Below are positions 18,448 through 44,282 of a DNA stretch of 64,000 nucleotides, one piece after another. The first letter of the stretch is position 1, and every line of letters begins with the position of its first letter. Source of the DNA: Squalus acanthias (taxonomy: Eukaryota); the NCBI GenBank assembly GCA_030390025.1, contig CM059425.1:260586001-260650000 (forward strand). Direction: 5' to 3'. The notes under the pieces were generated by a model that was given only the letters and a program-made list of their open reading frames with translations, was not told where the DNA came from and did not search any database. Position numbers and translations under genes: made by a program.

Positions 18448-18804
18448 CAAATACTTGTAGACTTATCTCATCTTGTGTCACAAAGATCTCCCTTTCTGGA
18501 TTACTATGACTGCACTCAACGTGACAGAAGTACATATTGGTGTCGTTCACCCTCAGGTTTCTGATCCTGATGGAAGCGTTTCCACTCATCAGATGTCCAC
18601 TCAGTTCAAATCGATCATTCGCATTCGTGAGGTTCAGTTTTGTAGAATGGTTAAAGACGACCTGGCCCTTCTGCTCGTACGGGTTCCCTCTGGTCCAGAT
18701 CACAGCGATGTTCTGGGGATCTTTGGGCTCCAGGGTGAAGGAGCAGGACAACGTGACCGAACCTCCTTCAGTCTCACTCACTGACCTGCTGCTTGGATCA
18801 GCTT
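18448..18804 (-). CDS. Gene A exon: Ig V-set domain, Siglec-like, His in place of the essential Arg (YFCHVE)
   Basis: Acceptor ctctctttcAG at 18806-18805, donor GTAAGT at 18447; 357 bp, phase 1-1; VTLSC...VIW...NASIRIRNLRVNDTNMYFC V-set pattern. Confidence 0.88.
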
Positions 18805-19004
18805 CTGAAAGAGAGAATGGATGAAAGCTCAGATCCTCCCTGGACTGTATTGGAACATAAAGCATAAAGTAAGAAAGAATATGCAGTATATCATGAGAAG
18901 AAGTAAGGGCAGGAGTCGGCCATACGGCCCCTCAAGCCTGCTCCGCCATTCGATAAGATCATGGCCAATCATCGACCTCAACTCCACTTTCCCGCCCGAT
19001 CTAT

Positions 19005-19400
19005 GAGAACATATCGCGCCTTTCACAACCGCAGGACGTCCCAAAGCGCTTCACAGCCAATGAAGTACTTTGTGAAGTGTAGTCACTGTTGCAATGTAGG
19101 AAACGCGGCAGCCAATTTGTGCACAGCAAGCTCCCACAATATCACCAGATCATTTTTTTTTGGCAATGTTGGCTCAGAACACCCCAACTCTTCTTCAAAA
19201 TAGAGCCACGGGATCTTCTACATCCACCTGAGAGGGCAGACGGGGCCTCAGTTTAACGTCTCATCCAAACAACAGCCCCTCCGGTAGTGCAGCGCTCCCT
19301 CAGTACTGCACTGAGCCGAGATCTTGCACTTCCAAGTCTCTGGAGCGGGACCTGAACCCACAACCTTGTGACTGAGAGGCGAGAGAGATACCCACTGAGC
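19005..19400 (-). mobile_element. Deu-SINE (SacSINE1-like)
   Basis: Deu-domain core TGTGGGAGCTTGCTGTGCACAAATTGGCTGCCGCGTTTCC on the minus strand; tRNA-like head near 19390. Confidence 0.75.
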
Positions 19401-19771
19401 TCCAGCTTACACAATGAGAACAACTCATTCAGCTCATCGCCCCTGCTGCTTCCACAGATCAGGTACACTCTTCCCCAAGATGGACTCTAAATCAACAATC
19501 CATTGTGGAGACGCACTCCTGCACGAAAATATAAGCAATCAAAAATTGTAAATTATACAAGCTCTCATAGAATCATAGACATTTACGGCACAGAAGGAGG
19601 CCATTCGGCCCATCGTGTCCGCGCCGGCCGACAAAGAGCTATCCAGCCTCATCCCACTTTCCAGCTCTTGGTCCGTAACCCTGTAGGTTACAGCACTTCA
19701 AGTGCACATCCAAGTACTTTTTAAATGTGATGAGAGTTTCTGCCTCTACCACCCTTTCAGGCAGTGAGTTC

Positions 19772-21677
19772 CAGACCCCCACCACCCTCTGGGTGAAAAC
19801 ATTTCTCCTCAACTCCCCTCTAATCCTTCTACCAATTACTAAAAATCTATGCCCACTGGTTATTGACCTCTCTGCTAAGGGAAATAGGTCCATCCTATCC
19901 ACTCTGTCTAGGCCTCTCATAATTTTATACACCTCAATTAAATCTCCCCTCAGCCTCCTCTGTTCCAAAGAAAACAACCCCAGCCCTCTCTTTGCTTTCC
20001 TAGTTTCCTTTTTAATTTCACCTCTATTTCAACTACATAAGCAACAGAAAGATCGAATCAATATTCCTGGACTCCAAACCTGTATGTTGTGGCCTTGCGG
20101 AAAGGCTGTAACCCTTCCTCCAGTATTAGACACTGAAAGAACACTCTCCTTAACCCAATTTCAGTTTTAGACACCGGATCTACTCTGCCTCAGTCTGGGG
20201 TCTAGAAGTTTAGAATTGAAATAAAAACAGAAAATGCATTCAGCAGGTCAGGCAGCATCTGCGGAGAGAGAAACAGAGTTAACGTTTCAGGTCGATGACC
20301 TTTCATCAGCACTCAGTTTAGAATTGAAGTTCAGTTGCAGGCAAGTCCTTACCTATTACCTGTAGACTTGTTCCAAGTTTATGTTCAAACTGTTCCCCGG
20401 GCTTGTCAAGCTCCACACGGCAGAAGTAGTTATTCGTATCATTTTTCATAAGTTTTTGTATCATTATTGAAGCATCATTTTTCCTTGGGTCTCCTGTCAG
20501 TCGATAGTGATTCTCTCCAGTTTGATCAGTCACATTCTGATTTATGCAATTCTGCTGTGGGTCGACAGTTATACATTTAAAAATAGGCGGTCCATTTAAA
20601 AACTCATCTATTCTCCAGATTACTTCGATTTTCCCGTTAGAGCCAGTGTGGGGGTGCGTGAACTTGCAGGACAAGATGACAGACTCTCCTTCCCGACCGG
20701 TCACTTTCCGTGGGGCTGACATTGACCATTGACTCTGACTGCTGCCTGTGGGACAGGGATAGTATGTTAGTCTTGTACACCAAGCTCTTGTGACGCAACG
20801 GTTCAAGAAGAAGGCTCAGCACCACCATCTCAAGGGCAACTAGGGATTGGTAATAAAATGCCAGCGATGACCACATCCCGTGAATGAATACACAATTACA
20901 ATAAAGCAAATACAGAGCCACAGACATCACAATAAGACCTGACAGTCTAGACCGAACACGCTTACTTTACAAATGATAAATGACAGTCGAAAGAACTTGC
21001 ATTTATCTAGCAACTTTCACAACCTCAGGATGTCTCAAAGCGCTTTACAGCCAATGAAGTACTGTTTGAAGTGTAGTCACTGTTGCAATGTGGGAAACGC
21101 GGCAGCCAATTTGTGCACAGCAAGCTCCCACAAACAGCAATGTGATAAATGACCAGATAATCTGGGGTTTTTTTTAAGTGATGTTGGTTGAGGGATAAAT
21201 ATCAGCCGAATCACCAGGGATAACTCCCCTGCTCTTATCGAATCGTAGAATCATAGAATAATACAGGACAGAAGGAGGCCTTTTGGCCCATCATGCCTGT
21301 GCCGGCTCTTTGAAAGAGCTATCCAGTTAACGCCTTTCCCCATCGCCCTGAAAATGTTTCCCCTTCAAGTGGTTATCCAATTCCCTTTTAAAATTTATTA
21401 TTGAATCTGCTTTCAGGCAGAGCTTTCCAGATAATAACAAGTATTGCGCAAAAAATTTCTCCTCATCTCGCATCTGGCCCCTGCCACAGTACCAAAACGG
21501 CTCTTATTAAAGTCACAGATGACATCCTATGTGTCTGTGGTCATGGAAAACTATCCCTCCTCGTCCTTCTCGACTTGTCTGCAGCCTTTGACACGGTTGA
21601 CCACTCCATCCTCCTCCAATGCCTCTTCACCGTCGTCCAGCTGGGTGGGACTGCCCTTGCCTGGTTCCACCATCTAC
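19772..21677. repeat. Segmental duplicate copy B (~1.9 kb) carrying a V-set exon
   Basis: About 97-98% identical by eye to 22069-23973, offset 2296-2297. Confidence 0.95.
20353..20745 (-). CDS. Gene A exon: Siglec-15-like V-set domain, copy B, essential Arg retained (YFCRVE)
   Basis: Acceptor ctgtcccacAG, donor GTAAGG; 393 bp, phase 1-1; WSMS.P..V.G..G.SVILSCKFTHPH...GPPIFKC...C...YRLTGDPRKNDAS...YFCRVE closely follows the Siglec-15 V domain. Confidence 0.92.
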
Positions 21678-22068
21678 AAGCCACAAGTCTGGAGTGTGAT
21701 GGAATACTCTCCACTTGCCTGGATGAGTGCAGCTCCAACAACACTCAAGAAGCTCGACATCATCCAGGACAAAGCAGCCGCTTGATTGGCACCCCATCCA
21801 CCACCTTAAACATTCACTCCCTGCACCAGCGGTGCACCGTAGCTGCAGTGTGTACCATCTACAAGATGCACTGCAGCAACTTGCCAAGGCTTCTTTGGCA
21901 GCACCTCCCAAACCCGCAACCTCTTCCACCTAGAAACAGCTAAAGTGACGTCACAACCAGGGAAGGAGCTGATTGGTAAATAGGACCTGGTGAGTATTTC
22001 TACAGTCCAGTCGTTAAAGTAAAAGTAAGGTCTCTAGTTTAGAGTAAGTAGTGTTTAAAGGGAAGTTG

Positions 22069-23973
22069 CAGACCCCCACCACCCTCTGGGTGAAAACATT
22101 TCTCCTCAACTCCCCTCTAATCCTTCTACCAATTACTAAAAATCCATGCCCCCTGGTTATTGACCTCTCTGCTAAGGGAAATAGGTCCATCCTATCCACT
22201 CTGTCTAGGCCTCTCATAATTTTATACACCTCAATTAAATCTCCCCTCAGCCTCCTCTGTTCCAAAGAAAACAACCCCAGCCCTCTCTTTGCTTTCCTAG
22301 TTTCCTTTTTAATTTCACCTCTATTTCAACTACATAAGCAACAGAAAGATCGAATCAATATTCCTGGACTTCAAGCCTGTATGTTGTGGCCTTGCGGAAA
22401 GGCTGTAACACTTCCTCCAGTATTAGACACTGAAAGAACACTCTCCTTTACCCAATTTCAGTTTTAGACACCGGATCTACTCTGCCTCAGTCTGGGGTCT
22501 AGAAGTTTAGAATTGAAATAAAAACAGAAAATGCATTCAGCAGGTCAGGCAGCATCTGCAGAGAGAGAAACAGAGTTAACGTTTCAGGTCGATGACATTT
22601 CATCAGCACTTAGTTTAGAATTGAAGTTCAGTTGCAGGCAAGTCCTTACCTATTACCTGTAGACGTGTTCCACGTTTATGTTCAAACTCTTCCCCGGGCT
22701 TGTCAAGCTCCACACGGCAGAAGTAGTTATTCGTATCATTTTTCATAAGTTTTTGTATCATTATTGAAGCATCATTTTTCCTTGGGTCTCCTGTCAGTCG
22801 ATAGCGATTCTCTCCAGTTTGATCAGTCACATTCTGATTTATGCAATTCTGCTGTGGGTCGACAGTTATACATTTAAAAATAGGCGGTCCATTAAAATGC
22901 TCATCTATTCTCCAGATGACTTCGATTTTCCCGTTATAGCCTGTGTGGGGTTGCGTGAACTTGCAGGACAAGATGACAGACTCTCCTTCCCGACCGGTCA
23001 CTTTCCGTGGGACTGACATTGACCATTGACTCTGACTGCTGCCTGTGGGACAGGGATAGTATGTTAGTCTTGTACACAAAGCTCTTGTGACGCAACGGTT
23101 CAAGAAGAAGGCTCAGCACCACCATCTCAAGGGCAACTAGGGATTGGTAATAAAGTGCCAGCGATGACCACATCCCGTGAATGAATACACAATTACAATA
23201 AAGCAAATACAGAGCCACAGATATCACAATAAGACCTGACAGTCCAGACCGAACACGCTTACTTTTCAAATGATAAATGACAGTAGAAAGAACTTGCATT
23301 TATCTAGCAACTTTCACAACCTCAGGATGTCCCAAAGCGCTTTACAGCCAATGAAGTACTGTTTGAAGTGTAGTCACTGTTGCAATGTGGGAAACGCGGC
23401 AGCCAATTTGTGCACAGCAAGCTCCCACAAACAGCAATGTGATAAATGACCAGATAATCTGGGGTTTACTTAAGTGATATTGGTTGAGGGATAAATATCA
23501 GCCAAATCACCAGGGATAACTCCCCTGCTCTTGTCGAATCGTAGAATCATAGAATAATACAGGACAGAAGGAGGCCTTTTGGCCCATCGTGCCTGTGCCG
23601 GCTCTTTGAAAGAGCTATCCAGTTAACGCCTTTCCCCATAGCCCTGCAAATGTTTCCCCTTCAAGTGGTTATCCAATTCCCTTTTAAAATTTATTATTGA
23701 ATCTGCTTTCAGGCAGAGCTTTCCAGATAATAACATCTATTGCGTAAAAAATTCTCCTCATCTCGCATCTGGCCCCTGCCACAGTACCAAAATGGCTCTT
23801 ATTAAAGTCACAGATGACATCCTATGTGACTGTGGTCATGGAAAACTATCCCTCCTCGTCCTTCTCGACTTGTCTGCAGCCTTTGACACGGTTGACCACT
23901 CCATCCTCCTCCAATGCCTCTTCACCGTCTGTCCAGCTGTGTGGGACTGCCCTTGCCTGGTTCCACCATCTAC
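22069..23973. repeat. Segmental duplicate copy A (~1.9 kb) carrying a V-set exon
   Basis: Same order as copy B: CR1 3' piece, Penelope-like tail, V exon, Deu-SINE piece, CR1 tail, L2 piece. Confidence 0.95.
22650..23042 (-). CDS. Gene A exon: Siglec-15-like V-set domain, copy A, essential Arg retained (YFCRVE)
   Basis: Acceptor AG at 23044-23043, donor GTAAGG at 22649; 393 bp, phase 1-1; open frame; joins the leader as ...SMLN-S-SSQSQWSMSVP. Confidence 0.92.
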
Positions 23974-24620
23974 CTCACTGCCACTTCTCTCGACCCCTCC
24001 ACTGTCTCTAAATTGTCAAACTGCTTGTCCGACATCCAGTGCTGGAGGAGCAGAAATTTTCTCCAACTAAGTATTGGGAAAAATGAAGCCATTGTTTTCG
24101 GTCCCAGTCACAAACGCCATTCCCTAGGAACCGACTCCATCCCTCTGACTGGCAACTGTCTGAGGCTGAACCAGACTGTTCGCAAACTTGGTGTCATATT
24201 TGACCTCGAAATGAGCTTCCAACCACATTTCCGTGTCATCACTAAGACCGCCTATTTCCACCTCTGGAACACCACTAAGTTACCTAATTACAAATTTAAT
24301 TAAATTTAATTGAATAAAACAAGGTCATATAGGGATGGCAGTGCAGGTGGTGTGCTGCAACTGCAGCATGTGGGAGTTTGTGGAGAGCATTGTGATCCCG
24401 GACAACCACGTTTGCAGTAAGTGTCTGCATCTTGAGGAACTTCAGCTCAGAGTTGTTGAGCTGGAGTCTGAGGTGCAGATATTGCAGGGCATCAGGGATG
24501 GGGAGAGTTACCTGGACACTTTGATGCAGGAGGCAGTCACACCCCTTAGGTTATGTAGTGGTACAGGTCTGGTTAGTGGTCAGGGACAGGAGGATGTGAC
24601 TGCAACTCAGGCAGGTAAGG

Positions 24621-25757
24621 CACATGTGATTGGGGGCAAGGTATTGACTTGGATAGAGAACTGGTTCTCGGACAGAAAGCAGAGAGTAGGAATTAATGGG
24701 TCTTTTTCCGAGTGGCAAGCAGTGACTAGTGGGGTACCGCAGGGATCGGTCCTTGGACCCCAGCTATTCACAATATACATTAATGATCTAGATAAGGGAA
24801 CTAAATGTAATATCTCCAAGTTTGCAGATGACACAAAGCTGGGTGGGAGTGTGTGCTGCGAGGAGGATACCGAGAAACTCCAGGATGATTTGGACAGGTT
24901 GGGTGAGTGGTCAGAAGCGTGGCAGATGCAATATAACGTGGATAAATGCGAGGTTATCCACTTTGGTGTCAAAAACAGAAAGGCAGACTATTATCTGAAT
25001 GGCAATAGATTGGGAGAAGGGAAAGTGCAACGAGACCTGGGTGTCCTTGTGCACCAGTCGCTGAAGGTAAGCATGCAGGTGCAGCAGGCGGTGAAGAAGG
25101 CAAATGGTATGTTGACCTTCATAGCGAAAGGGTTTGAGTATAGGAACAGGGATGTCCTGCTGCAGTTGTACAGGGCCTTGGTGAGACCACACCTTGAGTA
25201 CTGTGTGCAGTTTGGGTCGCCTTATCTGAGGAAGGATGTTCTTGCCATGGAAGGAGTTCAGCGAAGATTCACAAGGCTGATACCTGGGATGGCAGGAATG
25301 ACATATGAGGAGAGATTGGGTCGATTGGGCTTATACTCGCTGGAGTATAGAAGAATGAGAGGGGATCTCATCGAAACATATAAAATTCTGACAGGTCTGG
25401 ACAAACTAGATGCAGGAAGGATGTTCCCGATGGTCGGAGAGTCCAGAACCAGGGGTCATAATCTAAGGATAAGGGGTAAGCCATTTAGGACAGAAATGAG
25501 GAAGAATTTCTTCACCCAGAGAGTGGTGAACCTGTGGAATTCTCTACCACAGAAGGTAGTGTCGGCCAAGTCATTAAATATATTCAAGAATGAGTTAGAT
25601 ATATTTCTGAAAGCTAAAGGTATCAAGGGATATGGGGAGAAGGCAGGTACAGGGTACTGAGTTTGGATGATCAGCCATGATCTCATCGAATGGCGGAGCA
25701 GGCTCGAGGGGCCGAATGGCCTACTCCTGCTCCTATTTTCTATGTTTCTATGTTTCT
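24621..25757 (+). mobile_element. 5'-truncated CR1 (RT C-terminal half plus tail) inserted in ORF1 of another CR1
   Basis: TSD AGGTAAGG at 24613-24620 and 25758-25765; QGSVLGP, FADD; (TTTCTATG)n tail. Confidence 0.9.
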
Positions 25758-27525
25758 AGGTAAGGGGACACCAGGTGCAATGCTGGAGGAACCTCAGGCT
25801 TTGCCCTTGTCCAACAGGTATGAGGTTCTTGCTGCCTGTGTGGATGAGGGAAAAGCCCGCAGGATGGATGAGCAAACTGACCATGGCACCATGGTGCAGG
25901 AGGCCATTCAAGTGGGGGGAGTGAAGGGAATATAGTTGTGGTAGGGGACAGTATAGTCAGGGGGATAGATACTGTTCTCTGCCGCTGCGACCGAGAGTTC
26001 CGAAGGTTGTGTTGCCTGCCCTGAGCCAGGGTTAAGGTCATCTCCTCGCAGCTGGAGAAGAATCTGGAGTGTGAGGGAGAAGATCCAGTTGTCTTGGTCC
26101 ACATATGAACCAATGACATAGGTAGAACTAGGAATGAGGTTCTGCTGAGGGAGTTTGAGGAGCTAGGATCCAAATTAAAAAGCAGAACCTCAAAGGTAAT
26201 AATCTCAGGATTGTTACCTGAGCCACGCGCAAATTGGCATAGGGACAAACAGATTGGAGGTTTAAATGCGTGGATCAAACAGTGGTGTGGGAGGAAGGGG
26301 GTTTCAGTTCATGGGCACTGGCACCAGTACTGGGGAAAGAGGGAGCTGTTCCATTTGGGACGGGCTCCAATTAAACTGAGCTGGGACCAGTGTCCTGGCG
26401 AACCGAATAACTAGGGCAGTAGACAGGGCTTTAAACTAATGAAGGGGGGTGGGAGGATTCAGGAAAGAGTAAATTTAAAAGCAGCGAGAGACATGTCAAG
26501 GCTCTAGAGCAGAGTAGTTTTGGGTAAAAATAAGCAGAGTGGGTCAGGAAGAGACAGAGAGAGTAACAAAGCTAATAAGGCATCAGTGACTAAGGTAACA
26601 TCAGGGAAAAAGAGAAATAAGTCAAAGCTAAAGGCACTATATCTGAATGCGCAAAGCATTCGCAACAAAATAGATGAATTAATAGCGCAGATAGAAATTA
26701 ATAGCTTTGATCTAATAGCCATTAAGGAGACGTGGTTGCAATGTGGCCAAGGTTGGGAACTAAATATTCCAGGATACTTAACTTTTAGAAGAGATAGGCA
26801 AAAAGGAAAAGGAGGAGGGGTAGCCCTGATAATAAAGGATGGGATAAAGACAGTAGAGAGAAAGGATCTGAGCTCCGAAAATCAAGAAGTAGAATCAGTT
26901 TGGGTAGAGCTAAGAAACAGCAAGGGGCAGAAAACATTGGTGGGAGTTGTTTATAGACCCCCAAAACAATAGTTGTAATGTAAGGCAGCGTATAAATCAG
27001 GAAATTAGAGGTGCATGTAACAAGGGTAATACAGTAATCATGGGGGACTTTAATCTACATATAGACTGGGCAAACCAAATTTGCAGTAATAGTGTGAAGG
27101 ACAAATTCATGGAATGTATGTAAGATAGTTTTCTTGATCAGTATGTTGCAGAACCAACTAGGGAACAGGCTATTTTAGATCTAGTATTGTGCAATGAGAA
27201 AGGGTTAATTAATAACCTTGTAGTAAAGGGGCCTTTAGGGAAGAGTGACCATAATATGATAGAATTTTATATTGAGTTTGAAAGTGATTTTGTTAAATCC
27301 AAAACTAGGGTCTTAAATCTAAACAAAGCAAACTACGTAGGTATGAGGGGTGAGTTGGCTAAGGTAGATTGGGAAACTACATTAAAAGGTATGACAGTAG
27401 ACAAGCAATGGCTAGCAGTTAAAGAATTAATACATAATTTACAACAAATACACATTCCTTTAAGGCACAAAAACCCCACAGGAAAAGTGGCCCAACCGTG
27501 GCTAACAAGAGAAGTTAAAGATAGT

Positions 27526-28391: not shown

Positions 28392-28449
28392 AGTATTAGA
28401 TCAAAGGAGGAGGCTTATAATGTTGCTAAAAAGAGTAGTAAGCTTGAGG

Positions 28450-30060
28450 TAAAAACAGAAAATGCTGGAGATACTCAGCAGGTCAGGCAGCATCTGTGAA
28501 GAGAGAAACAGAGTTAACGATTCAGGTCGATGACCTTTCCTCAGAACTGGAAAAAAGCAGGAAATGGAACAGATTTTTAAGCAAAGGTAGGGGCAGGGAA
28601 ATTGGGGAGGGGATGAAAGAACAAAAGGGAAGGTCTGTGATAGGATAGAAGGCAGGAGAGGTTAAAAGACATTAAGAGATATTCAAGGCAGAAGGAGATG
28701 GTAATGGGACAGGTTAAGAAACAAAGGATGGCTCTAGATGAAGTGTGAATTGCGCTGGCAGAATGAAAGACAGCTGCCATGTGGGAGAGAAGAAAAAAAG
28801 ACAAAGAGTGTGGATAAAAAATATATATATGATAGGGGCCGAGGTTATGATCTGAAATTGTTGAACTCGATATTGAGTCCGGAAGGCTGTAGAGTGCCTA
28901 ATCAAAAGATGAGGTGCTGTTCCTCAAGCTTACACTGAGCTTCCGTGGAACAATGCAAGAGGCCGAGGACGGTGAGGTCTGAGTGGGAGTGGAGTGATGA
29001 ATTAAAGTGACAGGCGAGCGGAAGCTCGGGGTCCCCCTTACGGACTGAACGGAAGTGTTCTGCAAAGCGGTCACCCAATCTGCGTTTCGTCTCCCCAATG
29101 TAGAGGAGACCACATCGTGAGCAGCGAATACAGTATACTAAATTGCAAGAAGTACAAGTAAATCGCTGTTTCACCTGGAAGGGGTGTTTGGGGCCCTGGA
29201 CAGTGGGAAGGGGGGAGGTATAAGGGCATGTGTTGCATCTCCTGCGCTTGCAGGGGAAGGTGCTGGGCGAAGGGGAAGGGGTGTTGGGGGTGATAGAGGA
29301 GTGGACTAGGGTGTCGCGGAGGGAGCGGTCCCTACGGAATGCTGAAAGGGGAGGTGAGGGGAAGATGTGTTTGGTGGTGGGATCACGCTGGAGGTGGCGG
29401 AAATGGCGGAGGATGATCCGTTGAATGTGAAGGCTGGTGGGGTGAAAAGTGAGGACAAGGGGAACTCTATCGTGGTTCCGGGAGGGAGGGGCAGGGGTGA
29501 GGACCAAGAAATTGATAAAGGAAGGGAAAATAGAATATGAGAGTAAACTGGTTGGGCCTCTGTTCAAGGAAGAAGCGGAGCACCCTCAGGCCATCCTGGT
29601 GGGGGATTGAGGTGTAGAGGGATTGGACGTCCATAGTGCAAAGGAGACGGTTGGGGCCAGGAAACTGGAAACTGTTAAAGTGGCGGAGGGCGTTGGAAGA
29701 GTCGCGGATGTAGGTGGGAATAGACTGGACAAAGGGAGAAAAAATAGAGTCAAGATAGGAAGAGATAAGTTCCGTGGGGCAAGAACAGGCTGAAACAATG
29801 GGACTACCAGGGCAGTCCTGTTTGTGGATCTTGGGAAGGAGGTAGAAACGGGCTGTGCGGGGTTGGGGAACTATGAGGTTGGCGGTCGTGGGGGGAAGAT
29901 CTCCAGAGGAGATGAGGTCAGTGACAGTCTTGGAAACAGTGGCTTGATTTTCGGTGGTGGGGTCATGGTCCAGGCGGAGATAGGAGGAGGTGTCGGAGAG
30001 TTGGCGTTCAGCTTCTGCTAGGTAGAGGTCGGTTCACCAAACAACAACAGCACCACCCTT
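28450..30060 (-). mobile_element. Penelope-like element fragment (RT remnant plus GIY-YIG endonuclease)
   Basis: ORF 28902-29567 NLVYCIRCSRCGLLYIGETKRRLGDRFAEH, RVPLVLTFHP; 12-bp TSD GTAAGCTTGAGG at 28438 and 30061. Confidence 0.88.
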
Positions 30061-32719: not shown

Positions 32720-35680
32720 GATTATATAGGATATACAGCAATGAAACAGGCGTTTCTGCTCCACTCGAGCCTCCTCCTGTCTTTCCTCATCTAAATCTAT
32801 CAGCGTAACCCTCTATTCTCTTCTCCCTCATATGCTTGTCCCGCCTCCCCTTAAATGCATCTATACTATTCGCCTCAACCACTCCCTGTGGTAGCGAGTT
32901 CCACATTCGCACCACTCTCTGGGTAAAGAAGTTTCTTCTGAATTCCCTACTGGATTTCTTGGTGACTATCTTATATTGATGGCCTCTAGTTATGCTCTTC
33001 CCCACAAGTGGAAACATTCTCTCTGTATCCACTCTATCAAAACCTTTCATAATTTTAAAGACCTCTATTAGGTCACCCCTCAGCCTTCTTTTTCAAGTGA
33101 AAAGAGACCCAGCCTGTTCATCCTTTCCTGATATGTATACCCTCGCATTTCTGGTATCATCCTTGTAAATCTTCTCTGCACCCTCTCCAGTGCCTCTATA
33201 TCCTTTTTATAATATGGCGGCCAGAATTGTACGCAGTACTCCAAGTGTGGTCTAACCAAGGTTCGGTAGAAGTTTAGCATAACCTCACTACTTTTCAATT
33301 CTATCCCTCTAGAAATAAACCCTAATGCCTGGTTTGCTTTATTGATGGCCTTGCTAACCTGTGTCGCAACTTTTAGTGATTTGTGTATTTGTACTCCGAG
33401 ATCCCTTTGTTCCTCTACCCCACCTAGACTCGCACCCTCCAAGTGATAAGTGACCTCCCTATTCTTCCTACCAAAATGTAATACCTCACATTTATCTGTG
33501 TTGAATTTCATTTGCCAATTATATGCCCATTCTGCAAGTTTATTGATGTCTTCCTGTAATTTGTTGCAGTCCTCCTCAGTATTATCTATCCCCCCAATTT
33601 GGTGTCGTCAGCAAATTTAGAAATTGTGTTTTTGATTCCAAAGTCTAAATCCTTGATATAAATTGTGAACAGCAGTGGTCCCAGCACTGATCCTTGTGGA
33701 ACACCACTACCCACCTTCTGCCACTGTGAATAGCTACCCTTTACCCCTACTCTCTGCTTTCTGTCTTGAAGCCAGCTAGCTATCCATTCTGCTACTTGTC
33801 CCCTGACTCTGCATTCGCTGACCTTATTCATTAGTCTATTGTGTGGTACTTTGTCAAAGGCCTTTTGAAAATCTCGATAAATTACATCTACTACATTACC
33901 CTTGTCTATTCTCTCTGTTACCTCTTCAAAAAATTCAATAAGGTTGGTCAAGCAAGACTTTCCCTTTTGAAACCCATGCTGACTATTCATTATTATACTT
34001 TTTGTTGCTAGATGTTCTTCTATTCTCTCCTTTAGTAGGGATTCCATTATTTTTCCTACCACCGATGTTAAGCTGACAGGTCTATAATTCCCTGGACATG
34101 TTCTATCTCCCTTCTTAAATATAGGTATTAGGTTTGCTATCCGCCAGTCCTCTGGCACTACAACTTTTTCTAATGAATTATTAAATATGTATACTAATGC
34201 CTCTGCTATCTCTTCCCTAGATTCTTTTAAAATGTGCGGATGTAATCCATCTGGACCAGTTTGAGTTTGATTAGTTTATTTAATATATGTCCTCTTTTTA
34301 TTTTAAATGCAGTTATTTCATTACTAATCTCATGATCCAATGTCATGTCCACCTGTTCTATCTCCCTGGTAAATACTGAGGCAAAGTAATTATTTAATAT
34401 TTCTGCCATCTCTGTATCACTGCCTGTGGTATTATCTGTCCATCCCTTAGTGACCTTATTCCCATCCCAACCTTCCTTTTTTATTGATGTGCCTGTAAAA
34501 TATTTTACTATTTTGTTTTATTTTCCTTGATAATTTAATTTCATTGTTCCTCTTTGCCTTCCTAATTGTTTTTTTGACTTCTTTCCTAATCTCTTTGTAT
34601 TTTCCCTTATCATGCTCTCCCATGCTGTATATGTACTTAATGTATGCCTCTTTCCTTACCCTCAATGTTTTCCTTATGGCTTTATTCATCCATGGTGTCT
34701 CATTAGTATTTAGCTTGTTCTTGTTTTTTCGTGGAATATATTTTTCTGGACTCTGTTGAACACCGTTTTAAATGTTTCCCATTGCTGTTCTACATCATTG
34801 TTTGCCAATAATGCCCATTTTATTTTCCCAGGTTCGATTCTCAGCCTCTCAAAATCAACTTTTCTCCAATCTATTACCCATGTCTTCATCATACTTATGT
34901 CCTTCTCAATTATTATTTTAAAACGTATTATATTATGGTCACTATTGCTTAGATGTTCCCCTACTTTTATTTCTCTTATCTGCTCTGGCTCATTCCCCAT
35001 CCAATAGCGAATGCTCCCTTGTTGGGCTTTTTACATATTGGGTTAGAATGGAGTCCTGTAGACATTGTAGGAACTCCATTCCCTTATCCCCTTTACCTAC
35101 CTCTTCTGTCCAATTAATATCGGGGTAGTTGAAATTCCCCATGATTATTATTCTATGTTTTTTACTCATTTCCCTAATTTGTCTGCATATTTCTTCCTCC
35201 ACCTCCCTTCCACTATTAGGTGGTCTGTAGACTACCCCTATTAGTGTGATTGATCCTTTATTACCTTTTATCTCTATCCACATGGATTCTATTTCTGTCT
35301 TGATGATAGCTGCGTCACTTTTTTCTACTGCCATTATGTTATCCCTAATAAGTACAGCTACTCCACCTCCCCTTTTCCCCTCTCTATCTTTTCTAAATAT
35401 GTTATACCCTGCAATGTTTAATTCCAAGTCCTGATTTTTCTGTAGCCATGCCTCAGTAATCCCTATTACATCTGGTTCCTCGCAATGCATGCTTGCCTCC
35501 AGCTCCCCTGTTTTATTATGGAAATTGTGTGCATTGCTGTACAGACAGTTTAACTCATTTTTAATACCAGTTCCTTTCAATTTATTTTTAACCATCTTTT
35601 TATAATCCTGCTCGATAACTCTATTTATTCCCTGGCCATCAATGTCTTCCCTTACTTTACTCTTTTGTATGTTCTCATTA
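32720..35680 (-). mobile_element. Decayed CR1 ORF2 (APE plus RT) of a second subfamily
   Basis: Collinear fragments [48 protein letters not shown], with frameshifts. Confidence 0.88.
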
Positions 35681-37414
35681 GAAAATAAAAAATAGAAGCA
35701 GGAATAGGCCATTTGGCCCTTCGAGCCTGCTCCGCCATTCAATAAGATCATGGCTGATCTTCTACCTTTACTCCACTGTCCTGAACTATCCCCATATCCC
35801 TTGATTCCCTTAATATTCAAAAATCTATCGATCTCTGTCTTGAATATACTCAATGAAAGAGCCTCCACAGTCCTCTGGGAGAGAGAATTCCAAACATTCA
35901 CCATCCACTTGAGTGAAGAAATTTCTCCTCCTCTCAGTCCTAAATGGCCGACCCCTTATTCTGAGACTGTGACCCCTGGTTCTAGACTCCCCAGCCAGGG
36001 GAAACATTCTCCCTGCATCTACCCTGTTAAGCCCTGTACGAATTTTGTATGTTTCAATTAGATCACCTCTCATTCTTCTAAACTCTAGAGAATATAAGCC
36101 TAGTCTACTCAATCTGTCCTCATAGGACAATCGGCCCATCCCAGCGACCAGTCTGGTGAACCTTTGTTGCACTCCCTCTATGGCAAGTATATCCTTCCTT
36201 AGGTAAGGAGACCAAAACTGTACACAATACTCCAGGTGTGGTCTCACCAGGGCCCTATATAATTACAGTAAGACATCTTTACTCTTATACTCAAATCCTC
36301 TTGTAGTAAAGGCCAACATACCATTTGCTTTCCTAATTGCTTGCTATCCCTGCATGTTAGCATTCAGTGATTTGTGTACAAGGACACCCAGGTCCCTCTT
36401 AACACCAACATTTCCTAATCTCTCACCATTTAAAAAATACTCTGCTTTTCTATTTTTCCTACCAAAGTGGATAACTTCACATTTCTCCACATTATATTCC
36501 ATTTGCCATGTTCTTGCCCACTCACTTAGCCTGTCTATATCCCCTTGAAGCCTCCTTGCATCCTCCTCATCCTCCACCCAGCTTTGTATCATCAGCAAAC
36601 TTGAATATTTTACATTTGGTCCCCTCATCCAAATCATTGATGTAGATTGTGAATAGCTGAGGCCCAAGCACTGATCCTTGCGGTACCCCACTAGTTACAG
36701 CATGCCAAACCGAAAATAACACGTTTATTTCTACTCTCTGGTTTCTGTCCGTTAACCAATCCTCAATCCATGCTAGTATATTACCCCCAATCCCATGAGC
36801 CCTAATTTTGTTTAATAACCTCTTGTGTGGCACCTTATCGGATGCCTTCTGAAAATCCAAATACACCACATCCACTGGTTCCCCCTTATCTATTCTGCTA
36901 GTTACAACCTCAAAAAACTCCAACAGATTTGTCAAACAACATTTCCCTTTCATAAATCCGTGTTGACACTGCCCAATCCTATTATTATTTTCTAAGTGCC
37001 CTGTTACCTCGTCTTTAATAAAATATTCTAGCATTTTCCATACTGCTGATGTCAGGCTAACAGGTCTGTTGTTCCCCGTTTTCTCTCTCCCTCCTTTCTT
37101 AAATACTGGGGTTACATTTGCTACCTTCCAATCCATGGGAACTATTCTAGAATCTATGGAATTTTGGAAAATGACAACCAAAGCATCCACTATCTCTCGC
37201 CACCTCTTTCAAAACCCGAGGACGTAGGCCATCAGGTCCAGGGGATTTATCGGCTTTCAGTCCCATTAATTTCTCCAGTACTACTTTTTTACTAATACTA
37301 ATATATTTCAGTTCCTCATTCTCGCTAGATCCTTGGTTGTCCACAATTTCCAGGAAGTTTTTGTTTCTTCTTCTGTGAAGACAGACACAAAGGGCTCGAT
37401 TTTGTCAATGGGGA

Positions 37415-39742
37415 CATAAGAACATAAGAACATAAGAAATAGGAGCAGGAGTAGACCAATCGGCCCCTCGAGCCTGCTCCGCCATTCAATGAGATCATGG
37501 CTGATCTGATCCAACCTCAACTCTAAAGAACACAAGAAGTAGGAGCAGGACCAGGCCACTCGGCCCCTGGGCCTGCTCCGCCACCCACAGGGCCTTGACT
37601 GATCCGAACTCAAACTCATGTCCATTTTCCAGCCCGCTCCCCGTAACCCCTGATTCCCTTTACTTCTAGGAAACGGTCTATTTCTGTTTTAAATTTATTT
37701 AATGAAGTAGCTTCCACAGCTTCCTGGGGTAGCAAATTCCACAGACCCACTACCCTCTGAGTGAAAAAGTTTCTCCTCATCTCAGTTTTGAAAGAGGAGC
37801 CCCTTACTCTAAGATTATGTCCCCTAGTTCTAGTTTCACCCATCATTGGGAACATCCTCACCGCGTCCACCCGATCCAGCCCCTTCACAATCTTATATGT
37901 TTCAATAAGATTGCCTCTCATTCTTCTGAACTCCAATGAGTAGAGTCCCAATCTACTCAACCTCTCCTCGTATGTCCACCCCCTCATCCCCGGAATTAAC
38001 CGAGTGAACCTTCTTTGTACTGCCTCGAGAGCAAGTATGTCTTTTCTTAAGTATGGACACCAAAACTGTATGCAGTACTCCAGGTGCGGTCTCACCAATA
38101 CCCTATACAACTGCAGCAATACCTCCCTGTTTTTATATTCTATCCCCCTAGCAATAAAAGCCAACATTCCATTGGCTTTCTTGATCACCTGCTGCACCTG
38201 CATACTAACTTTTTGATTTTCTTGCACCAAGACCCCCAGATCCCTTTGTACTGCAGTACTTTCCAGTTTCTCGCCATTAAGATAATAACTTGCTCTCTGA
38301 TTTTTCCTGCCAAAGTGCATAACCTCACATTTTCCAATATTGTATTGCATCTGCCAAATCTCTGCCCACTCACCCAGCCTGTCTATATCCCCTTGTAGGT
38401 TTTTTATGTCCTCCTCACTCTCTACTTTCCCTCCCATCTTTGTATCATCTGCAAACTTTGATATGTTACACTCGGTCCCCTCCTCCAAATCGTTAATATA
38501 GATTGTAAAGAGTTGGGGACCCAGCACCGACCCCTGCTGAACACCACTGGCTACTGGTTGCCAGTCTGAGAATGAACCATTTATCCCAACTCTCTGCTTC
38601 CTGTTAGATAACCAATCCTCCACCCATGCCAGAATATTACCCCCAATCCAGTGATTTTTTATCTTGAGTAATAATCTTTTATGTGGCACCTTGTCGAATG
38701 CCTTCTGGAAGTCTAAATACACTACATCCACTGGTTCCCCTTTATCCACCCTGTACATTATGTCCTCAAAGAACTCGAGCAAATTTGTCAGACATGACTT
38801 CCCCTTCATAAAGCCATGCTGACTTTGTCCTATTAAATTATGTTTATCTAAATGTTCCGTTACTGTCTCCTTAATAATAGACTCCAAAATTTTACCCACC
38901 ACAGATGTTAGGCTAACTGGTCTATAATTTCCAGCCTTCTGCCTACAACCCTTTTTAAATAAGGGTGTTACATTAGCAGTTTTCCAATCTGCCGGGACCT
39001 TTGCTGAGTTCAGGGAGTTTTGGAAAATTATTACCAAAGCATCCACAATTCCTACTGCCACTTCCCTCAAGACCCTAGGATGTAAGCCATCAGGTCCAGG
39101 GGATTTATCCGCCATGAGTCTCATTATTTTACTGAGTACCAATTCCTTAGTGATTTTAATCGTATTTAGCTCCTGCCCCACTAGAGCCCCCTGTTTGTCC
39201 AGTGTTGGGATATTCTTAGTGTCCTCTACCGTAAAGACTGAAACAAAATATTTGTTCAGCATTTTTGCCATCTCCATGTTTCCCACCATTAATTTCCCGG
39301 TCTCATCCTCTAAGGGACCTACGTTTGCCTTAACCACCCTTTTTCTTTTTATATAACTATAGAAACTCTTGCTATCTGTTTTTATATTTTTTGCTAATTT
39401 ATTTTCATAGTCTATTTTCCCTTTCTTAATCAATCCTTTAGTTACTTTTTGTTGTCTTTTGAAGACTTCCCAATCTTCTATCCTCCCACTAACTTTGGCT
39501 ACCTTATATGTCCTTGTTTTTAGTTGGATACTTCCTTTAATTTCTTTTCTTAGCCATGGATGGCTGTCATTTCTTTTACACCCTTTTGTCCTCAGTGGAA
39601 TATATTTATTTTGAAAGTTGTAAAATAACTCCTTGAATGAACACCACTGCTCATGTACCGTCTTACCCTTTAATCTATTTTCCCAGTCCACTTTAATCAA
39701 TTCTGCTCTCATGCCATCATAGTCTCCTTTATTCAAGCTCAG
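37415..39742 (-). mobile_element. Young 5'-truncated CR1 with an uninterrupted RT ORF (37616-39793, 725 aa) and a doubled 3' tail
   Basis: All RT motifs open ([28 protein letters not shown]); tail (TTCTTATG)n. Confidence 0.92.
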
Positions 39743-39858
39743 TACGTGATGGAGGCGGGACTCCCACTTTTTGGGTTGTAGTCCCGCCTCCATCGACTTG
39801 TGGCCAACCCACTGTATTTTCCCTTGATTGACCTTGTTAAGCCCGCCCAGCAGAGCAC

Positions 39859-41195
39859 TTGAAAAACAGTGACAGGATTGGACAAAGTCAACATGGATTT
39901 ACAAAAGGTAAATCGTGCTTGACTAATGTACTGGAATTTTTTGAGGATGTAACTGATAGAATAGATAAGGGAGAACCAGTGGATGTGGCGTATTTGGACT
40001 TTCAGAAGGCTTTCGATAAGGTCCCGCATAAGAGATTAGCGTGTAAAGTTAAGGCACATGGGATTGGGGGCAAGGTACTGACTTGGATAGAGAACTGGTT
40101 GGCAGACAGGAAGCAAAGAGTTGGAATAAACGGGTCTTTTTCCGAGTGGCAGGCAGTGACTAGTGGGGTTCCGCAGGGATCGGTACGAGGACCCCAGCTA
40201 TTCACTATATATATTAATGATCTAGACAAGGGAACTAGATGTAATATCTCCAAGTTTGCAGATGACACAAAGCTGGGTGGGCATGTGTGCTGTGAGGAGG
40301 ATGCCAAGAAACTCCAGTATGATTTGGACAGGTTGGGTGATTGGGCAGAAGCATGGCAGATGCAGTATAATGTGGATAAATGCGAGGTTATCCACTTTGG
40401 TGGCAAAAACAGAAAGGCAGATTATTATCTGAACGGCAATAGATTGGGAGAAGGGGAAGTGCAATGAGACCTGGGTGTCCTTGTGCACCAGTCACTGAAG
40501 GTAAGCATGCAGGTACAGCAGACGGTTAAGAAGGCAAATGGTATGTTGGCCTTCGTAGCGAGAGAGTTTGAGTACAGGAACAAAGATGTCATGCTGCAGC
40601 TGTACAGGGCCTTGGTGAGACCACACCTTGAGTACTGTGTGCAGTTTTGGTCGCCTTATCTGAGGAAGGATGTTCTTGCCATGGAGGGTGTGCAGCGAAG
40701 ATTCACCAGACTGATACCTGGGATGGCAGGAATGACGTACGAGGAGAGATTGGGTCGATTGGGCTTATACTCACTGGAGTTTAGAAGAATGAGAGGAGAT
40801 CTCATTGAAACTTATAAAATTCTAACAGGGCTAGACAGACTGGATGCAGGAAGGATGTTCCCGATGGCGGGTGAGTCCAGAACAAGAGGTCACAGTCAAA
40901 AGATAAGGGGTAAGCCATTTAGGACAGAGATGAGGAGGAATTTCTTCACGCAGAGAGTGGTGAACCTGTGGAATTCTCTACCACAGAAGGCAGTTGAGGC
41001 CAAGTCAGTAAATATATTCAAGAAGGAGTTAGACATATTTCTTAAGGCTAAAGGTATCAAGGGATATGGGGAGAAGGCAGGGACAGGGTACTGAGTTTGG
41101 ATGATCAGCCATGATCTCATTAAATGGCGGAGCAGGCTCGAGGGGCCGCATGGCCTACTCCTGCTCCTATCTTCTATGTTTCTATGTTTCTATGG
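39859..41195 (+). mobile_element. 5'-truncated CR1 RT with one stop (same subfamily as 24621-25757)
   Basis: ORFs 39859-40467 and 40483-41094; CGA>TGA stop; (TTTCTATG)n tail. Confidence 0.9.
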
Positions 41196-43639
41196 ATACA
41201 GGTGACGTCAGCCATTGAAATTTCATCTGTCAAGAGCTTTTGACAGATGAAATTTCAGCGTTTGACAGCTCTGTGAAGCTGTCAAACACTGACAATATGA
41301 TTTCTAACGTGAGTCCCTGTACTTAGACTCAGTTAGAAATCAATCCAGCACAGAAAGCAGAACTGCAGCTTTTGACAGCTCTGCGGCCATTCTGCTTTCT
41401 GTGCCGGTGAGATTTCTGACTCCCGAGACCTGAAGGGCTGACACCTGCAGGAGGAAGTTAAGGTAAGTAAAACTTTTTTCCACACTTTACACTTACCTTA
41501 CAGACTTACCTCTGCAGACATGCACCCATCACTCACCTGCCCACTGGACATATTGACCCCTCCAACTCCTGCAGACCCACGGTCCGCCTTGCTGAAACGG
41601 CGTGGTTGGGACCTGTCGCGTAGCCCACACTTCAGGGCTAAAAATAGGGATTAGGCAACAAACTGCCTGTTAACTACCTGTTAACAGGCAGTTAATTGTC
41701 ACTAATCCCCTTCCCGCCTCGGGGAAGCGGCTCCCAGCACAGGTCGGGTACCCGCCTCCTGTGAAACTGGCATGGAGGCAGGTTGGGGGCAGGATGGGTT
41801 CGGGACCCCCGAATCTGCTATTTTGACACCCCACGCGCCTCCAAACCCGCCTCCACGGGCCGGTGTAAATTCTGCACAAAGTATTTGTTTAATTTCACTG
41901 CCATTTCCTTATTCCCCATTATAATTTCTCCTGTCTCAGCCTGTAAGGCACCCACATTTACTTTTGCTAATCTTTTCCTTTTTACATACCTATAGAAGCT
42001 TTTACAGTCTGTTTTTATGTCTCTCGCTTGTTTATTATCATATTCTATTTTCTCTTTCTTTATCAATTTCTTGGTCCTCCTTTGCTGAATTGTAAAATCC
42101 TCCCAATCCTCAGGCTTATAACTCTTTTTGGCAGCTTTATAAGCATCTTCCTTTGATCTAATACTATCTTTAACTTCTCTTGTTAGCCATGGTTGGATCA
42201 CTTTTCCTGTGGGGTTTTTGTGCCTTAAAGGAATGTATATTTGTGGAAATTATGTATTAATTCTTTAAATGCTAGCCATTGCTCATCCAATGTCATACCT
42301 TTTAATGTAATTTCCCAATCTACCTTCGCCAACTCACCCCTCATACCTACGTAGTTTGCTTCATTTAGATTTAAGACACTAGTTTCGGATTTAACTAAGT
42401 CACTTTCAAACTCAATATAAAATTCTATCATATTATGGTCACTCTTCCCTAAAGGCCCCTCTACTGTAAGGTTATTAATTAACCCTTTCTCATTGCACAA
42501 TACTAGATCTAAAATAGCCTGTTCCCTAGTTGGTTCCTCAACATACTGATCTAAAAACTATCTTGCATACATTCCATGAATTCGTCCTCCTCACTATTAC
42601 TGCAAATTTGGTTTGCCCAGTCTATATGTAGATTAAAGTCCCCCATGATTACTGTATTACCCTTGTTGCATGTGCCTCTAATTTCCTGATTTATACTCTG
42701 CCCTACATTACAACTACTGCTTGGGGGCCTATAAACAACTCCCACCAATGTTTTCTGCCATTGCTGTTTCTTAGCTCCACCCAAATTGATTCTACTTCTT
42801 GATTTTCGGAGCTCAGATCCTTTCTCTCTACTGTCTTTATCCCATCCTTTATTATCAGGGCTACCCCTCCTCCTTTTCCATTTTGCCTATCTCTAATAAA
42901 AGTTAAGTATCCTGGAATATTTAGTTCCCAAACTTGGCCACTTTGCAACCATGTCTCTGTTATGGCTATTAGATCAAACCTGTTAATTTCTATCTGCGCT
43001 ATTAATTCATCTATTTTGTTGCGAATGCTTCGCGCATTCAGATATAGTGCCTTTAGCTTTGACTTAGTTCTATTTTTCCCTGATGTCACCTTAGTCACTG
43101 ATGCCCTATTGCCTTTGTTACTCTCTCTGTCCCTTCCTGACCCACTCTGCTTATTTTTACCCAAAACTCTACTCTGCTCTAGAGTCTTGACATTTCTCTC
43201 GCTGCTTTTAAATTTACTCTTTCCTGAATCATCCCACCCCACCTTCATTAGTTTAAAATCCTGTCTACTGCCCTAGTTATTCGGTTCACCAGGACACTGG
43301 TCCCAGCCCGGTTTAAGTGGAGCCCATCCCAACGGAATGTTTGTCCCTATGCCAGTTTGCGCGTGGCTTAGGTAACAATCCAGAGATTATTACCTTTGAA
43401 GTTCTGCTTTTTAATTTGGATCCTAGCTCCTGAAACTGCCTCAGCAGAACCTCATTCCGAATTCTACCTATGTCGTTGGTTCCTACATGGACCATGACAA
43501 TTGGATCCTCCCCCTCCCACTCCAGATTCTTCTCCAGCTGCGAGGAGATGACCTTAACCCTGGCTCAGGGCCGGCAACACAACCTTCGGAACTCTTGGTC
43601 GCAGCGGCAGAGAACAGTATCTCTCCCCCTGACTATACC

Positions 43640-43915
43640 GAGACCCCCGTCTGCCCTCGCGGGTGGTTGTAAAAATCCCATGGCACTTCAAGAAGAGCAG
43701 CCGAGTTCTCCCTAGCGTCCTGGCCAATACGTAAACCCTCAACCCACATCACTGAAACATCGGTCATTATCTCATTGCTGTTTGTGTGACTTTGCTGTGC
43801 ACAAATTGGCAGTCGCATTTCCCTGCATTACAACAGCAAGGAGTCATCATTGATTGTAAAGCGCTTTAGGACGACCTGAGTTTGTAAAAGGCGCTGTATA
43901 AATGCAAGTCTTTCT
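43640..43915 (+). mobile_element. Deu-SINE 3' part
   Basis: ATTGCTGTTTGTG...TTGCTGTGCACAAATTGGC and AAATGCAAGTCTTTC end. Confidence 0.7.
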
Positions 43916-44230
43916 TTATCAAACATCTACCACTATTAAGGAAGTAAAACACTCACAAGAATCAAAAAAACCCTTGCACACTCTGCTTTGCGTCTTACCG
44001 TTTTAACAACAAACGCACAAAAACCTTACACGCACACACCGTGCGAATATGAGTATTGAAGTCACAGGTCTACTACTCAGGTTTTATTTACCGAATCAGA
44101 AATTCAATTAGGCACATCTGCATTCCCAATTATCCACATGTGGCTAGCGGCAAATGTATTGGACAACACTGACATAAAGCAAAGTTAGTGAAACATCGGT
44201 TGGTACAATTGTTCTTTCGGATGTACTCAC

Positions 44231-44282
44231 TGTTCAGCATGGACACAGTCAGTAAAAGAAGGTGAATGAGAGAATGCGGCAT
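44231..44282 (-). CDS. Gene A first coding exon: signal peptide MPHSLIHLLLLTVSMLN
   Basis: ATG in CAAACATGC context, hydrophobic core, consensus donor A|GTGAGT, phase 1 matching the V exons; lies in non-repeat DNA. Confidence 0.75.

What the first reader, a model, noticed from the sequence alone, without database searches (positions are those of the whole stretch)
18448..44282. Siglec-like gene with three consecutive V-set exons, or alternative V cassettes
Seen: one leader then three V-set exons, all phase 1-1 with intact splice sites and open frames, and no leader found between them. Established: Siglecs normally carry one N-terminal V-set domain (Siglec-12 has two). Inference: either a V-V-V ectodomain with two sialic-acid sites (avidity), or swappable V exons giving isoform diversity in ligand recognition, since any subset splices in frame.
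Basis: partly seen in the sequence, partly recalled or inferred. Interest (0 to 1): 0.75.

Follow-up and report, generated by a model that had tools for sequence, protein, structure and literature searches.

The report
Shark Siglec gene, duplicated binding exon
A likely shark immune-receptor gene resembling Siglec-15 carries two near-identical copies of the exon for its predicted sialic-acid-binding domain ahead of a different domain that lacks the binding arginine, so splicing likely yields forms with one or two binding sites, an arrangement already seen in predicted genes of a chimaera, gar and lungfish.

Summary
In detail: one leader (44282-44231) and three open, phase 1-1 V-set exons on the minus strand (A 23042-22650, B 20745-20353, C 18804-18448). 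They are not three equivalent cassettes. A and B are 93% identical Siglec-15-type domains that keep the essential Arg and both disulfides, and they lie in a recent 1.9-kb duplication (97.6%). C lacks the Arg and belongs to the second-position ('V2') domains of cartilaginous-fish Siglec-15-like proteins (100/98 support); a common origin of A, B and C is rejected (p-AU 0.0002). The gene is the family's usual V1-V2 layout with V1 doubled. A public contig from a related organism joins a B-type exon exactly to C. No A-to-B join was shown, but the join list was cut. DNA contig depth (weak hint) and A- and B-type variants in other runs argue against an assembly artefact. Multi-V layouts are common: 39 of 150 relatives have two or more V domains, and elephant-shark LOC103188797 has RefSeq isoforms V1-V1-V1-V2 and V1-V1-V2. 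No C2 or transmembrane exon lies in the window; the 3' end is likely beyond a 16-kb satellite. Real, modest interest, not a new mechanism.

The parts
44231..44282 (-). Leader (signal peptide) coding exon, 17 codons + 1 nt, phase 1
   Evidence: sequence; only minus-strand hit of the leader scan; join to A inferred, not observed
22650..23042 (-). V exon A: Siglec-15-type V1 domain with W6, C26-C108, C57-C66, R109, F119
   Evidence: 7zoz E 2.8e-25; Foldseek TM 0.87, rmsd 1.8
20353..20745 (-). V exon B: recent copy of V1, 93% identical to A, Arg and Cys kept
   Evidence: B-type exon joined to C in run X17
18448..18804 (-). V exon C: second-position V2 domain, His in place of the essential Arg
   Evidence: both borders matched exactly by contigs in X16 and X17
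16761..16788 (-). 28-nt mini-exon after C (phase 1 to 2), likely optional
   Evidence: AG/GT sites in the sequence; about 30 letters of X17 cover inferred from the depth bin
22064..23973 (.). Duplicated segment holding exon A
   Evidence: 97.6% identical to 19767-21677 over 1912 nt, 43 mismatches, 3 gaps
19767..21677 (.). Duplicated segment holding exon B
21678..22063 (.). 386-nt spacer between the two copies that is not duplicated
1..16248 (.). 23-bp satellite, 708 copies, likely inside the intron before the missing 3' exons
   Evidence: no non-repeat island
49462..49510 (+). Leader exon of a head-to-head paralogue
   Evidence: (71% to the Heptranchias XP_067838218.1 leader)
54756..55124 (+). 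V2 exon (Arg-less) of the paralogue; no V1 exon between it and its leader
   Evidence: 74% to Heptranchias V2
59602..59976 (+). C2-set + transmembrane exon of the paralogue

Best explanation
This is a likely shark Siglec-15-like receptor gene of the V1-V2 type whose predicted sialic-acid-binding V1 exon was recently duplicated inside the gene, and because both copies sit in frame with identical splice sites it likely makes a mixture of forms with one or two V1 domains ahead of the Arg-less V2 domain. Shown: exon anatomy, the 1.9-kb duplication, Siglec-15-like sequence of A and B, V2 identity of C, and one spliced B-type-to-C join in a related organism. Inferred: that V1 binds sialic acid through R109 as Siglec-15 does through R143; that V2 acts as a spacer in place of a C2 domain; that A+B+C is made by default while single-V1 forms arise by cassette skipping; that the main effect is on reach and valency, with at most a small shift in specificity from the CC' loop change (HF in A, FL in B); and that the transmembrane or secreted end lies beyond the satellite.
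For: A and B match Siglec-15 best by sequence (E 2.8e-25 and 5.7e-22, next hits near 1e-7) and A by fold. They keep C64-C142, C95-C104, R143 and W44 equivalents, with F for Y154 (numbering from PMC10264397, passages). C falls in a starred clade made only of chondrichthyan-type second-position domains (24 rows 100/98; 11 rows 100/99); A+B+C as one clade is rejected, p-AU 0.00025. V1-V2 proteins are annotated in Heptranchias, Callorhinchus, Mobula, Narcine, Mustelus and Leucoraja. Callorhinchus LOC103188797 X1 has V1-V1-V1-V2-C2-TM and X2 lacks exactly one 130-residue V1. In one search, X17 record 20 joins 20353-20595 (1 difference from B over 4 sites that tell A from B) to 18804-18448 at the exact borders. 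X16 record 16 covers a whole V1 exon laid on A, stops at the donor and has 30 further letters, while X16 record 12 starts at the first base of C: the pattern expected if a non-B V1 copy is spliced to C (inference from k-1 overlap; letters not seen). No steric, frame or pairing device forces exclusivity: A-B intron 1904 nt, both exons in frame, no inverted repeat of 20 nt or more except one local palindrome in 18400-24500.
Against: No A-to-B join was displayed in 3 of 3 RNA-guess runs, although 1825 joints were not shown and depth was 3-10, so the two-site form is unobserved. The runs come from organisms that differ from the window (best share of words 0.57; shared differences in exon C), so their copy order may differ. 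X16 record 16 has 19 differences in 420 letters, more than A from B, and includes 27 letters of upstream intron, so it may be a third copy or another gene. The comparison proteins are predicted models; near-identical tandem exons are hard to annotate and some multi-V hits look like fused neighbours (P0008, P0013, P0025). A versus B shows no sign of selection (10 of 12 changes non-synonymous, 9.4 expected), and B has the rarer residue at 5 of 9 changed sites. The 3' end was not found.
Confidence: 0.58

Rival explanations
1. Constitutive V1-V1-V2 protein: both copies are always included and give two binding sites (avidity), with skipping only as noise.
For: Identical splice sites and ordinary intron sizes; B-to-C join fits this chain; lungfish XP_043935463.1 keeps the Arg in 7 of 7 tandem V domains and gar SIG15 in 2 of 2.
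Against: X16 contig borders hint that a non-B V1 copy joins C and that a second path enters C at its first base; RefSeq lists a V1-skipping isoform for the chimaera gene.
Confidence: 0.17
2. Young, nearly neutral duplicate: one copy (probably B) is drifting, and its inclusion has no selected role.
For: Non-synonymous share equals the neutral expectation (P 0.51); B branch 0.057 against A 0.009; B has the rarer residue at sites 10, 35, 49, 79 and 126 among 49 other rows, and loses the aromatic at the Y87 position.
Against: B keeps its frame, Arg, four Cys and splice sites; a B-type exon is spliced in a second organism and B-type bases dominate the DNA contig of another (8 of 10 sites); 12 changes give little power. 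This rival can coexist with the best explanation.
Confidence: 0.13
3. Mutually exclusive cassettes: each transcript takes A or B, never both, giving two specificities.
For: Only V1-to-C joins were seen or hinted; 2 of 9 changes fall on positions equivalent to Siglec-15 ligand contacts (Y87, R153).
Against: No enforcing device found; contact enrichment not significant (P 0.075); the join list was cut, so absence of A-B is not shown; chimaera models include several V1 at once.
Confidence: 0.07
4. Assembly artefact: two alleles of one exon placed in tandem.
For: 2.4% divergence could be allelic at an immune locus; no displayed record spans the junction between the copies.
Against: No gaps (0 N); the repeat is not flush, a 386-nt unduplicated spacer lies between the copies; in DNA run X5 contigs on the V1 exon have depth 78-86 against 33-34 on exon C and its flank (weak hint), with further cover on A; variants nearer A and nearer B both occur in other runs.
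Confidence: 0.05

Closest known systems
Callorhinchus milii LOC103188797 (XP_042192088.1 isoform X1, XP_042192095.1 isoform X2; predicted models)
   Same: Leader, tandem near-identical Arg-bearing V1 domains, then one Arg-less V2; isoforms differ by one V1.
   Different: Independent duplication (its V1 copies group with each other); three copies, not two; lacks the C'-C'' Cys pair; has C2, TM and tail, which were not found here.
Chondrichthyan Siglec-15-like V1-V2 receptors (Heptranchias XP_067838218.1 and XP_067838506.1, Mustelus XP_078071345.1, Leucoraja XP_055488063.1, Mobula XP_062903801.1, Amblyraja XP_032874704.1)
   Same: V1 then V2 order, phase 1-1 domain exons here, clustered paralogues; C belongs to their V2 clade; A/B group with their V1 at 96/90 in the 35-row tree.
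   Different: No close orthologue found (best single-domain identity 48% or less); the A/B placement was open in the 86-row tree; the skate protein multiplied V2, not V1.
Human Siglec-15 (PDB 7zoz)
   Same: V domain fold, R143, W44, C64-C142 and the unusual C95-C104 disulfide.
   Different: Siglec-15 has one V, one C2 and a TM lysine for DAP10/12 (PMC7226832, PMC6829431, passages); here V is followed by V, and no C2 or TM was found.
Siglec-12/XII and CD33m
   Same: Two V-set domains in Siglec-XII (PMC7876704, passages); a short CD33 splice form and V-set exon 2 inclusion appear in PMC6829431 (passages and reference titles).
   Different: CD33-related branch, not Siglec-15 type; human Siglec-XII has lost the Arg; CD33 has one V.
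Lungfish XP_043935463.1 and XP_043934105.1, gar MBN3317296.1 (predicted models)
   Same: Tandem Arg-bearing Siglec-15-type V domains (7, 2 and 2; up to 97% and 94% identical pairs).
   Different: No V2-type domain; separate duplications.

Membership tests
Siglec family (general) | N-terminal V-set Ig domain | tested here: met
   Pfam V-set above cut-off for A and B; fold match to 7zoz and sialoadhesin
Siglec family (general) | Conserved F-strand arginine | tested here: met
   R109 in A and B aligns to R143; absent in C (His)
Siglec family (general) | One or more C2-set domains after the V domain | tested here: inconclusive
   None on the minus strand of the window; the 3' part of the gene is outside the window
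Siglec family (general) | Transmembrane segment and signalling tail | not testable with these tools
   No genome held; 355 letters of X17 record 20 lie 3' of C but were not printed
Siglec family (general) | Sialic-acid-dependent binding | not testable with these tools
   Needs a glycan array or cell binding
Siglec-15 orthologue | C64-C142 and C95-C104 disulfides in the V domain | tested here: met
   C26, C108, C57, C66 align to them
Siglec-15 orthologue | Single V followed directly by a single C2 | tested here: not met
   V1 is followed by V1 and V2 exons; a B-type exon is spliced to V2
Siglec-15 orthologue | Lysine in the transmembrane segment | not testable with these tools
   TM exon not in the window
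Siglec-15 orthologue | Groups with Siglec-15 proteins in a tree | tested here: inconclusive
   Best tree puts A/B with chondrichthyan V1 (96/90), but grouping with the Siglec-15 set is not rejected, p-AU 0.216; open
Chondrichthyan Siglec-15-like V1-V2 receptors (working name, from RefSeq models) | Siglec-15-like V1 followed by an Arg-less V2 of the V2 clade | tested here: met
   V1-to-V2 splice
Chondrichthyan Siglec-15-like V1-V2 receptors (working name, from RefSeq models) | Lies next to paralogues of the same family | tested here: met
   Head-to-head paralogue at 49462-59976, 64-71% to Heptranchias XP_067838218.1
Mutually exclusive Ig exon cassettes (Dscam-like; recalled) | Device that forces one-of-n choice (short intron, frame shift, pairing elements) | tested here: not met
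   1904-nt intron, in-frame exons, no long inverted repeat; weak or protein-based devices not testable
Skate MDIR receptors | CD300/TREM/pIgR-like Ig domains | tested here: inconclusive
   MDIR sequences were not fetched; A's best solved relatives are Siglec-15 and CD33, and no CD300 or TREM entry is among the 39 hits; description from PMC3031540 (passages)

The most novel reading that the evidence does not exclude
One shark locus builds a small splice-selected repertoire of sialic-acid sensors: V1 copies that differ in the CC' loop and G strand are chosen singly or together, a leader-to-V2 skip gives a sialic-acid-blind form, and a frame-shifting mini-exon switches the C-terminus, with V1 copy number varying between species. 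It would be a Siglec that diversifies ligand recognition by exon cassettes instead of by whole-gene duplication.
Probability: 0.12. Interest if true: 0.65.

Novelty: new member of a known kind. Interest (0 to 1): 0.3.

Why it matters
The single-V rule in Siglec reviews comes from mammals. This gene and the predicted models found with it suggest that Siglec-15-like receptors of cartilaginous fishes, gar and lungfish gain and lose V exons repeatedly: this gene doubled V1, and its neighbour has no V1 exon at all. A 93% identical A/B pair with changes at the Y87 position is a cheap natural test of what tunes Siglec-15-type specificity and of whether an inner V domain can bind. The layout itself is already in public gene models, so the finding adds a case, not a mechanism.

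Tried and rejected
Word-index protein searches found no relative: A longer (0 of 51 candidates), C longer (0 of 64), A near length (0 of 1); these blanks are weak. No whole genome is held, so the 3' exons and synteny could not be followed. Sequencing runs: no RNA holder listed on record; the three 'RNA?' runs are guesses, and only the exact exon-to-exon join shows splicing. A candidate exon at about 16568 (acceptor before the satellite) was considered as the 3' end; bin 16260-16524 had no cover in the 3 RNA-guess runs and had cover in the DNA run, which does not exclude it. The frames printed for it used a start one base off and were not used. The long open frames in the satellite are an effect of the 23-bp unit and were rejected as coding. 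Recent triplication of one exon rejected. Positive selection between A and B not supported. The 27 extra letters of X16 record 16 were compared with the leader end (21 mismatches) and the A, B and C ends (19, 18, 23); none explains an alignment extension, so the record stays ambiguous. X12 record 8 was first read as copy A, but its one difference also fits the B-type haplotype of X5, so it is not used. Earlier scan notes: 3 look-ups, nothing shown. Literature: searches listed no paper on multi-V Siglec-15-like genes of cartilaginous fishes; subscription papers on Siglec evolution (for example Angata 2007, cited in PMC7226832) were not available, and no supplements were opened. No complex prediction was run.
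Full report
Setting. The window has no N, opens with a 23-bp satellite of 708 copies (1-16248) and is otherwise rich in LINE-like repeats (repeat classes recalled). That it comes from a shark is inferred from the plus-strand gene, whose exons are 64-71% identical to Heptranchias perlo XP_067838218.1. No whole genome is held.

Observation. On the minus strand there is a leader exon at 44282-44231, V exons at 23042-22650 (A), 20745-20353 (B) and 18804-18448 (C), and a 28-nt mini-exon at 16788-16761. The V exons are 393, 393 and 357 nt, phase 1-1, open, with AG/GT borders. Introns are 21188, 1904, 1548 and 1659 nt. All three pass the Pfam V-set cut-off. A leader scan over 16300-45500 gave one minus-strand hit, and profile searches of six frames with stops read through gave no further V exon and no C2 or TM exon on that strand.

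A and B are a recent duplicate. Segments 22064-23973 and 19767-21677 are 97.6% identical over 1912 nt, with a 386-nt unduplicated spacer between them. The exons differ at 12 of 390 coding bases, 10 non-synonymous and 2 synonymous; with 306.5 of 390 sites non-synonymous this is the neutral expectation (P 0.51). Nine residues differ. Against 49 other rows of alignment A1, A has the commoner residue at 5 sites (10, 35, 49, 79, 126), B at 1 (30), and 3 are uninformative. Branch lengths are 0.009 for A and 0.057 for B.

A and B are Siglec-15-type. The best solved relative is Siglec-15 (7zoz; E 2.8e-25 for A, 5.7e-22 for B; next hits 4e-8 and 2e-7). An AlphaFold model of A (pLDDT 88.8) matches 7zoz first of at least 500 (E 8.9e-14, TM 0.87, rmsd 1.8); the model was built with Siglec-15 relatives in its alignment, so this is not independent of the sequence match. 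PMC10264397 (passages) names R143 as essential, disulfides C64-C142 and C95-C104, and simulated contacts at W44, Y87, V150, R153, Y154 and E155. By the alignment these map to R109, C26-C108, C57-C66, W6, F49 (L in B), E118 (Q in B), F119 and E120. Two of nine A/B changes fall on 7 contact positions (P 0.075): suggestive only. Binding is inferred, not shown.

C is a different, older domain. It has His at the Arg position, is 40-41% identical to A and B, and has no clear Siglec match among solved structures (7zoz E 1e-4, last of the 60 shown). In a tree of 86 V domains it lies in a starred clade of 24 rows (100/98) made of non-leading domains of cartilaginous-fish proteins plus the neighbouring gene's V; a 35-row tree agrees (100/99) and rejects A+B+C as a clade (p-AU 0.00025). 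A/B group with chondrichthyan first domains at 96/90 in the small tree, are unresolved in the large one, and grouping with true Siglec-15 is not rejected (p-AU 0.216). The 86 and 35 rows were chosen by me from 43 proteins among the hits, favouring top scores and cartilaginous fishes.

The family. A HMMER search of 1.84 billion representatives gave 263 hits, 150 listed. With a family V profile, 39 of 150 have two or more V domains at 50 bits or more, 93 have one and 18 none; some of the 39 look like fused neighbours. Names were looked up for 30 hits. V1-V2-C2-TM occurs in Heptranchias, Callorhinchus and Mobula; V1-V2-TM in Mustelus, Leucoraja and Heptranchias; V1-V2-V2-V2-C2 in Amblyraja; seven Arg-bearing V domains in lungfish XP_043935463.1; two 94% identical ones in gar. 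Callorhinchus LOC103188797 is the closest parallel: X1 has three near-identical V1 and one V2, X2 lacks exactly one 130-residue V1. All are predicted models whose RNA support I could not see. The head-to-head neighbour in the window has leader, V2 and C2-TM exons but no V1 exon, so exon number changes in both directions within 45 kb.

Reads. Four of 22 listed runs were laid on 16260-24200; all are contigs from organisms that differ somewhat from the window. X17 record 20 joins 20353-20595 to 18804-18448 at the exact borders, with 1 difference from B over a span with 4 sites that tell A from B; 355 further letters lie 3' of C, of which about 30 fall in the mini-exon bin by depth arithmetic, so the rest of the gene likely lies outside the laid stretch, beyond the satellite, which has no unique island. 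X16 record 16 covers a whole V1 exon laid on A (19 differences in 420 letters), ends at the donor with 30 letters left over, and X16 record 12 begins at the first base of C. With 31-letter words this fits a V1-to-C join plus a second entry into C whose last base is not G; the leader ends in A. This is inference from borders; the letters were not shown, and the record may be a third copy. X16 has no cover in the mini-exon bin. X12 record 7 is laid on A with 3 differences, which needs at least 2 A-type bases at 4 sites. No A-to-B join is among the rows shown, but 1825 joints and most pieces were cut. In DNA run X5, contigs on the V1 exon have depth 86 and 78 against 33-34 on exon C and its flank, and are B-type at 8 of 10 sites in one record; the tool warns that depth is a poor copy measure, so this is a weak hint of two to three copies. 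No shown record spans the junction between the copies.

Mechanism. Domain exons of equal phase can be duplicated and skipped without changing the frame (established). A 1.9-kb duplication copied V1 with its splice sites. Nothing found forces exclusivity. The likely outcome is A+B+C by default with single-V1 forms by skipping, which changes reach and valency more than specificity. I put this at 0.58, constitutive inclusion at 0.17, a drifting copy without role at 0.13, strict exclusivity at 0.07 and artefact at 0.05.

Comparison with the literature. [quoted passage not shown] PMC13262535, PMC8455134 and PMC3031540 (passages) added nothing on this family. Searches (listings only) showed no paper on multi-V Siglec-15-like genes in cartilaginous fishes; the library lacks most subscription papers and supplements were not opened.

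Verdict. A real feature. It works like a Siglec-15-type lectin, is not filed as a Siglec-15 orthologue (V-C2 layout not met, TM untested), and is a new member of a kind already present in public gene models. Interest 0.3.

Noticed in passing
window 49462-59976 (+): Head-to-head paralogue with leader, Arg-less V2 and C2+TM exons but no V1 exon, unlike its close relative Heptranchias XP_067838218.1; likely a Siglec-like receptor that lost its binding domain. Its TM has no lysine; tail exons were not found in the window.
   Followed up: partly
window about 55501-59584: Harbinger-like DNA transposon in the paralogue's V2-C2 intron: open 386-codon DDE_Tnp_4 frame (56017-57174, E 4.6e-40), an opposite-strand open frame without Pfam hit (58463-57492), and imperfect terminal inverted repeats; the right end lies about 17 nt before the C2 exon. 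Family name recalled.
   Followed up: partly
window 1-16248: Pure 23-bp satellite (708 copies, GC skew about 0.87) that begins about 510 nt after the mini-exon and probably lies inside an intron of the gene.
   Followed up: partly
window 16761-16788 (-): 28-nt mini-exon that is not a multiple of three and holds a second possible acceptor 11 nt in; covered in X17 and X12 bins but not X16, so it may switch the frame of the 3' end.
   Followed up: partly
window 23043-23177 (-): Contigs in X12 and X16 include the last 27-135 nt of the 21-kb first intron; the V1 frame is open through this stretch, so a retained intron end or an upstream acceptor is possible.
   Followed up: no
window 28905-29585 (-): Open 227-codon frame with a GIY-YIG hit (E 8.3e-5), probably a Penelope-like retroelement piece in intron 1 (label recalled).
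   Followed up: no
window 17005-17224: Five tandem copies of a 42-44 bp unit derived from a common repeat end, between exon C and the mini-exon.
   Followed up: no
proteins P0006, P0010, P0012: Lungfish model with seven Arg-bearing Siglec-15-type V domains, lamprey models with three or more V domains that score against this family, and a skate model with three V2 domains: V-exon expansion recurs across fish lineages.
   Followed up: partly
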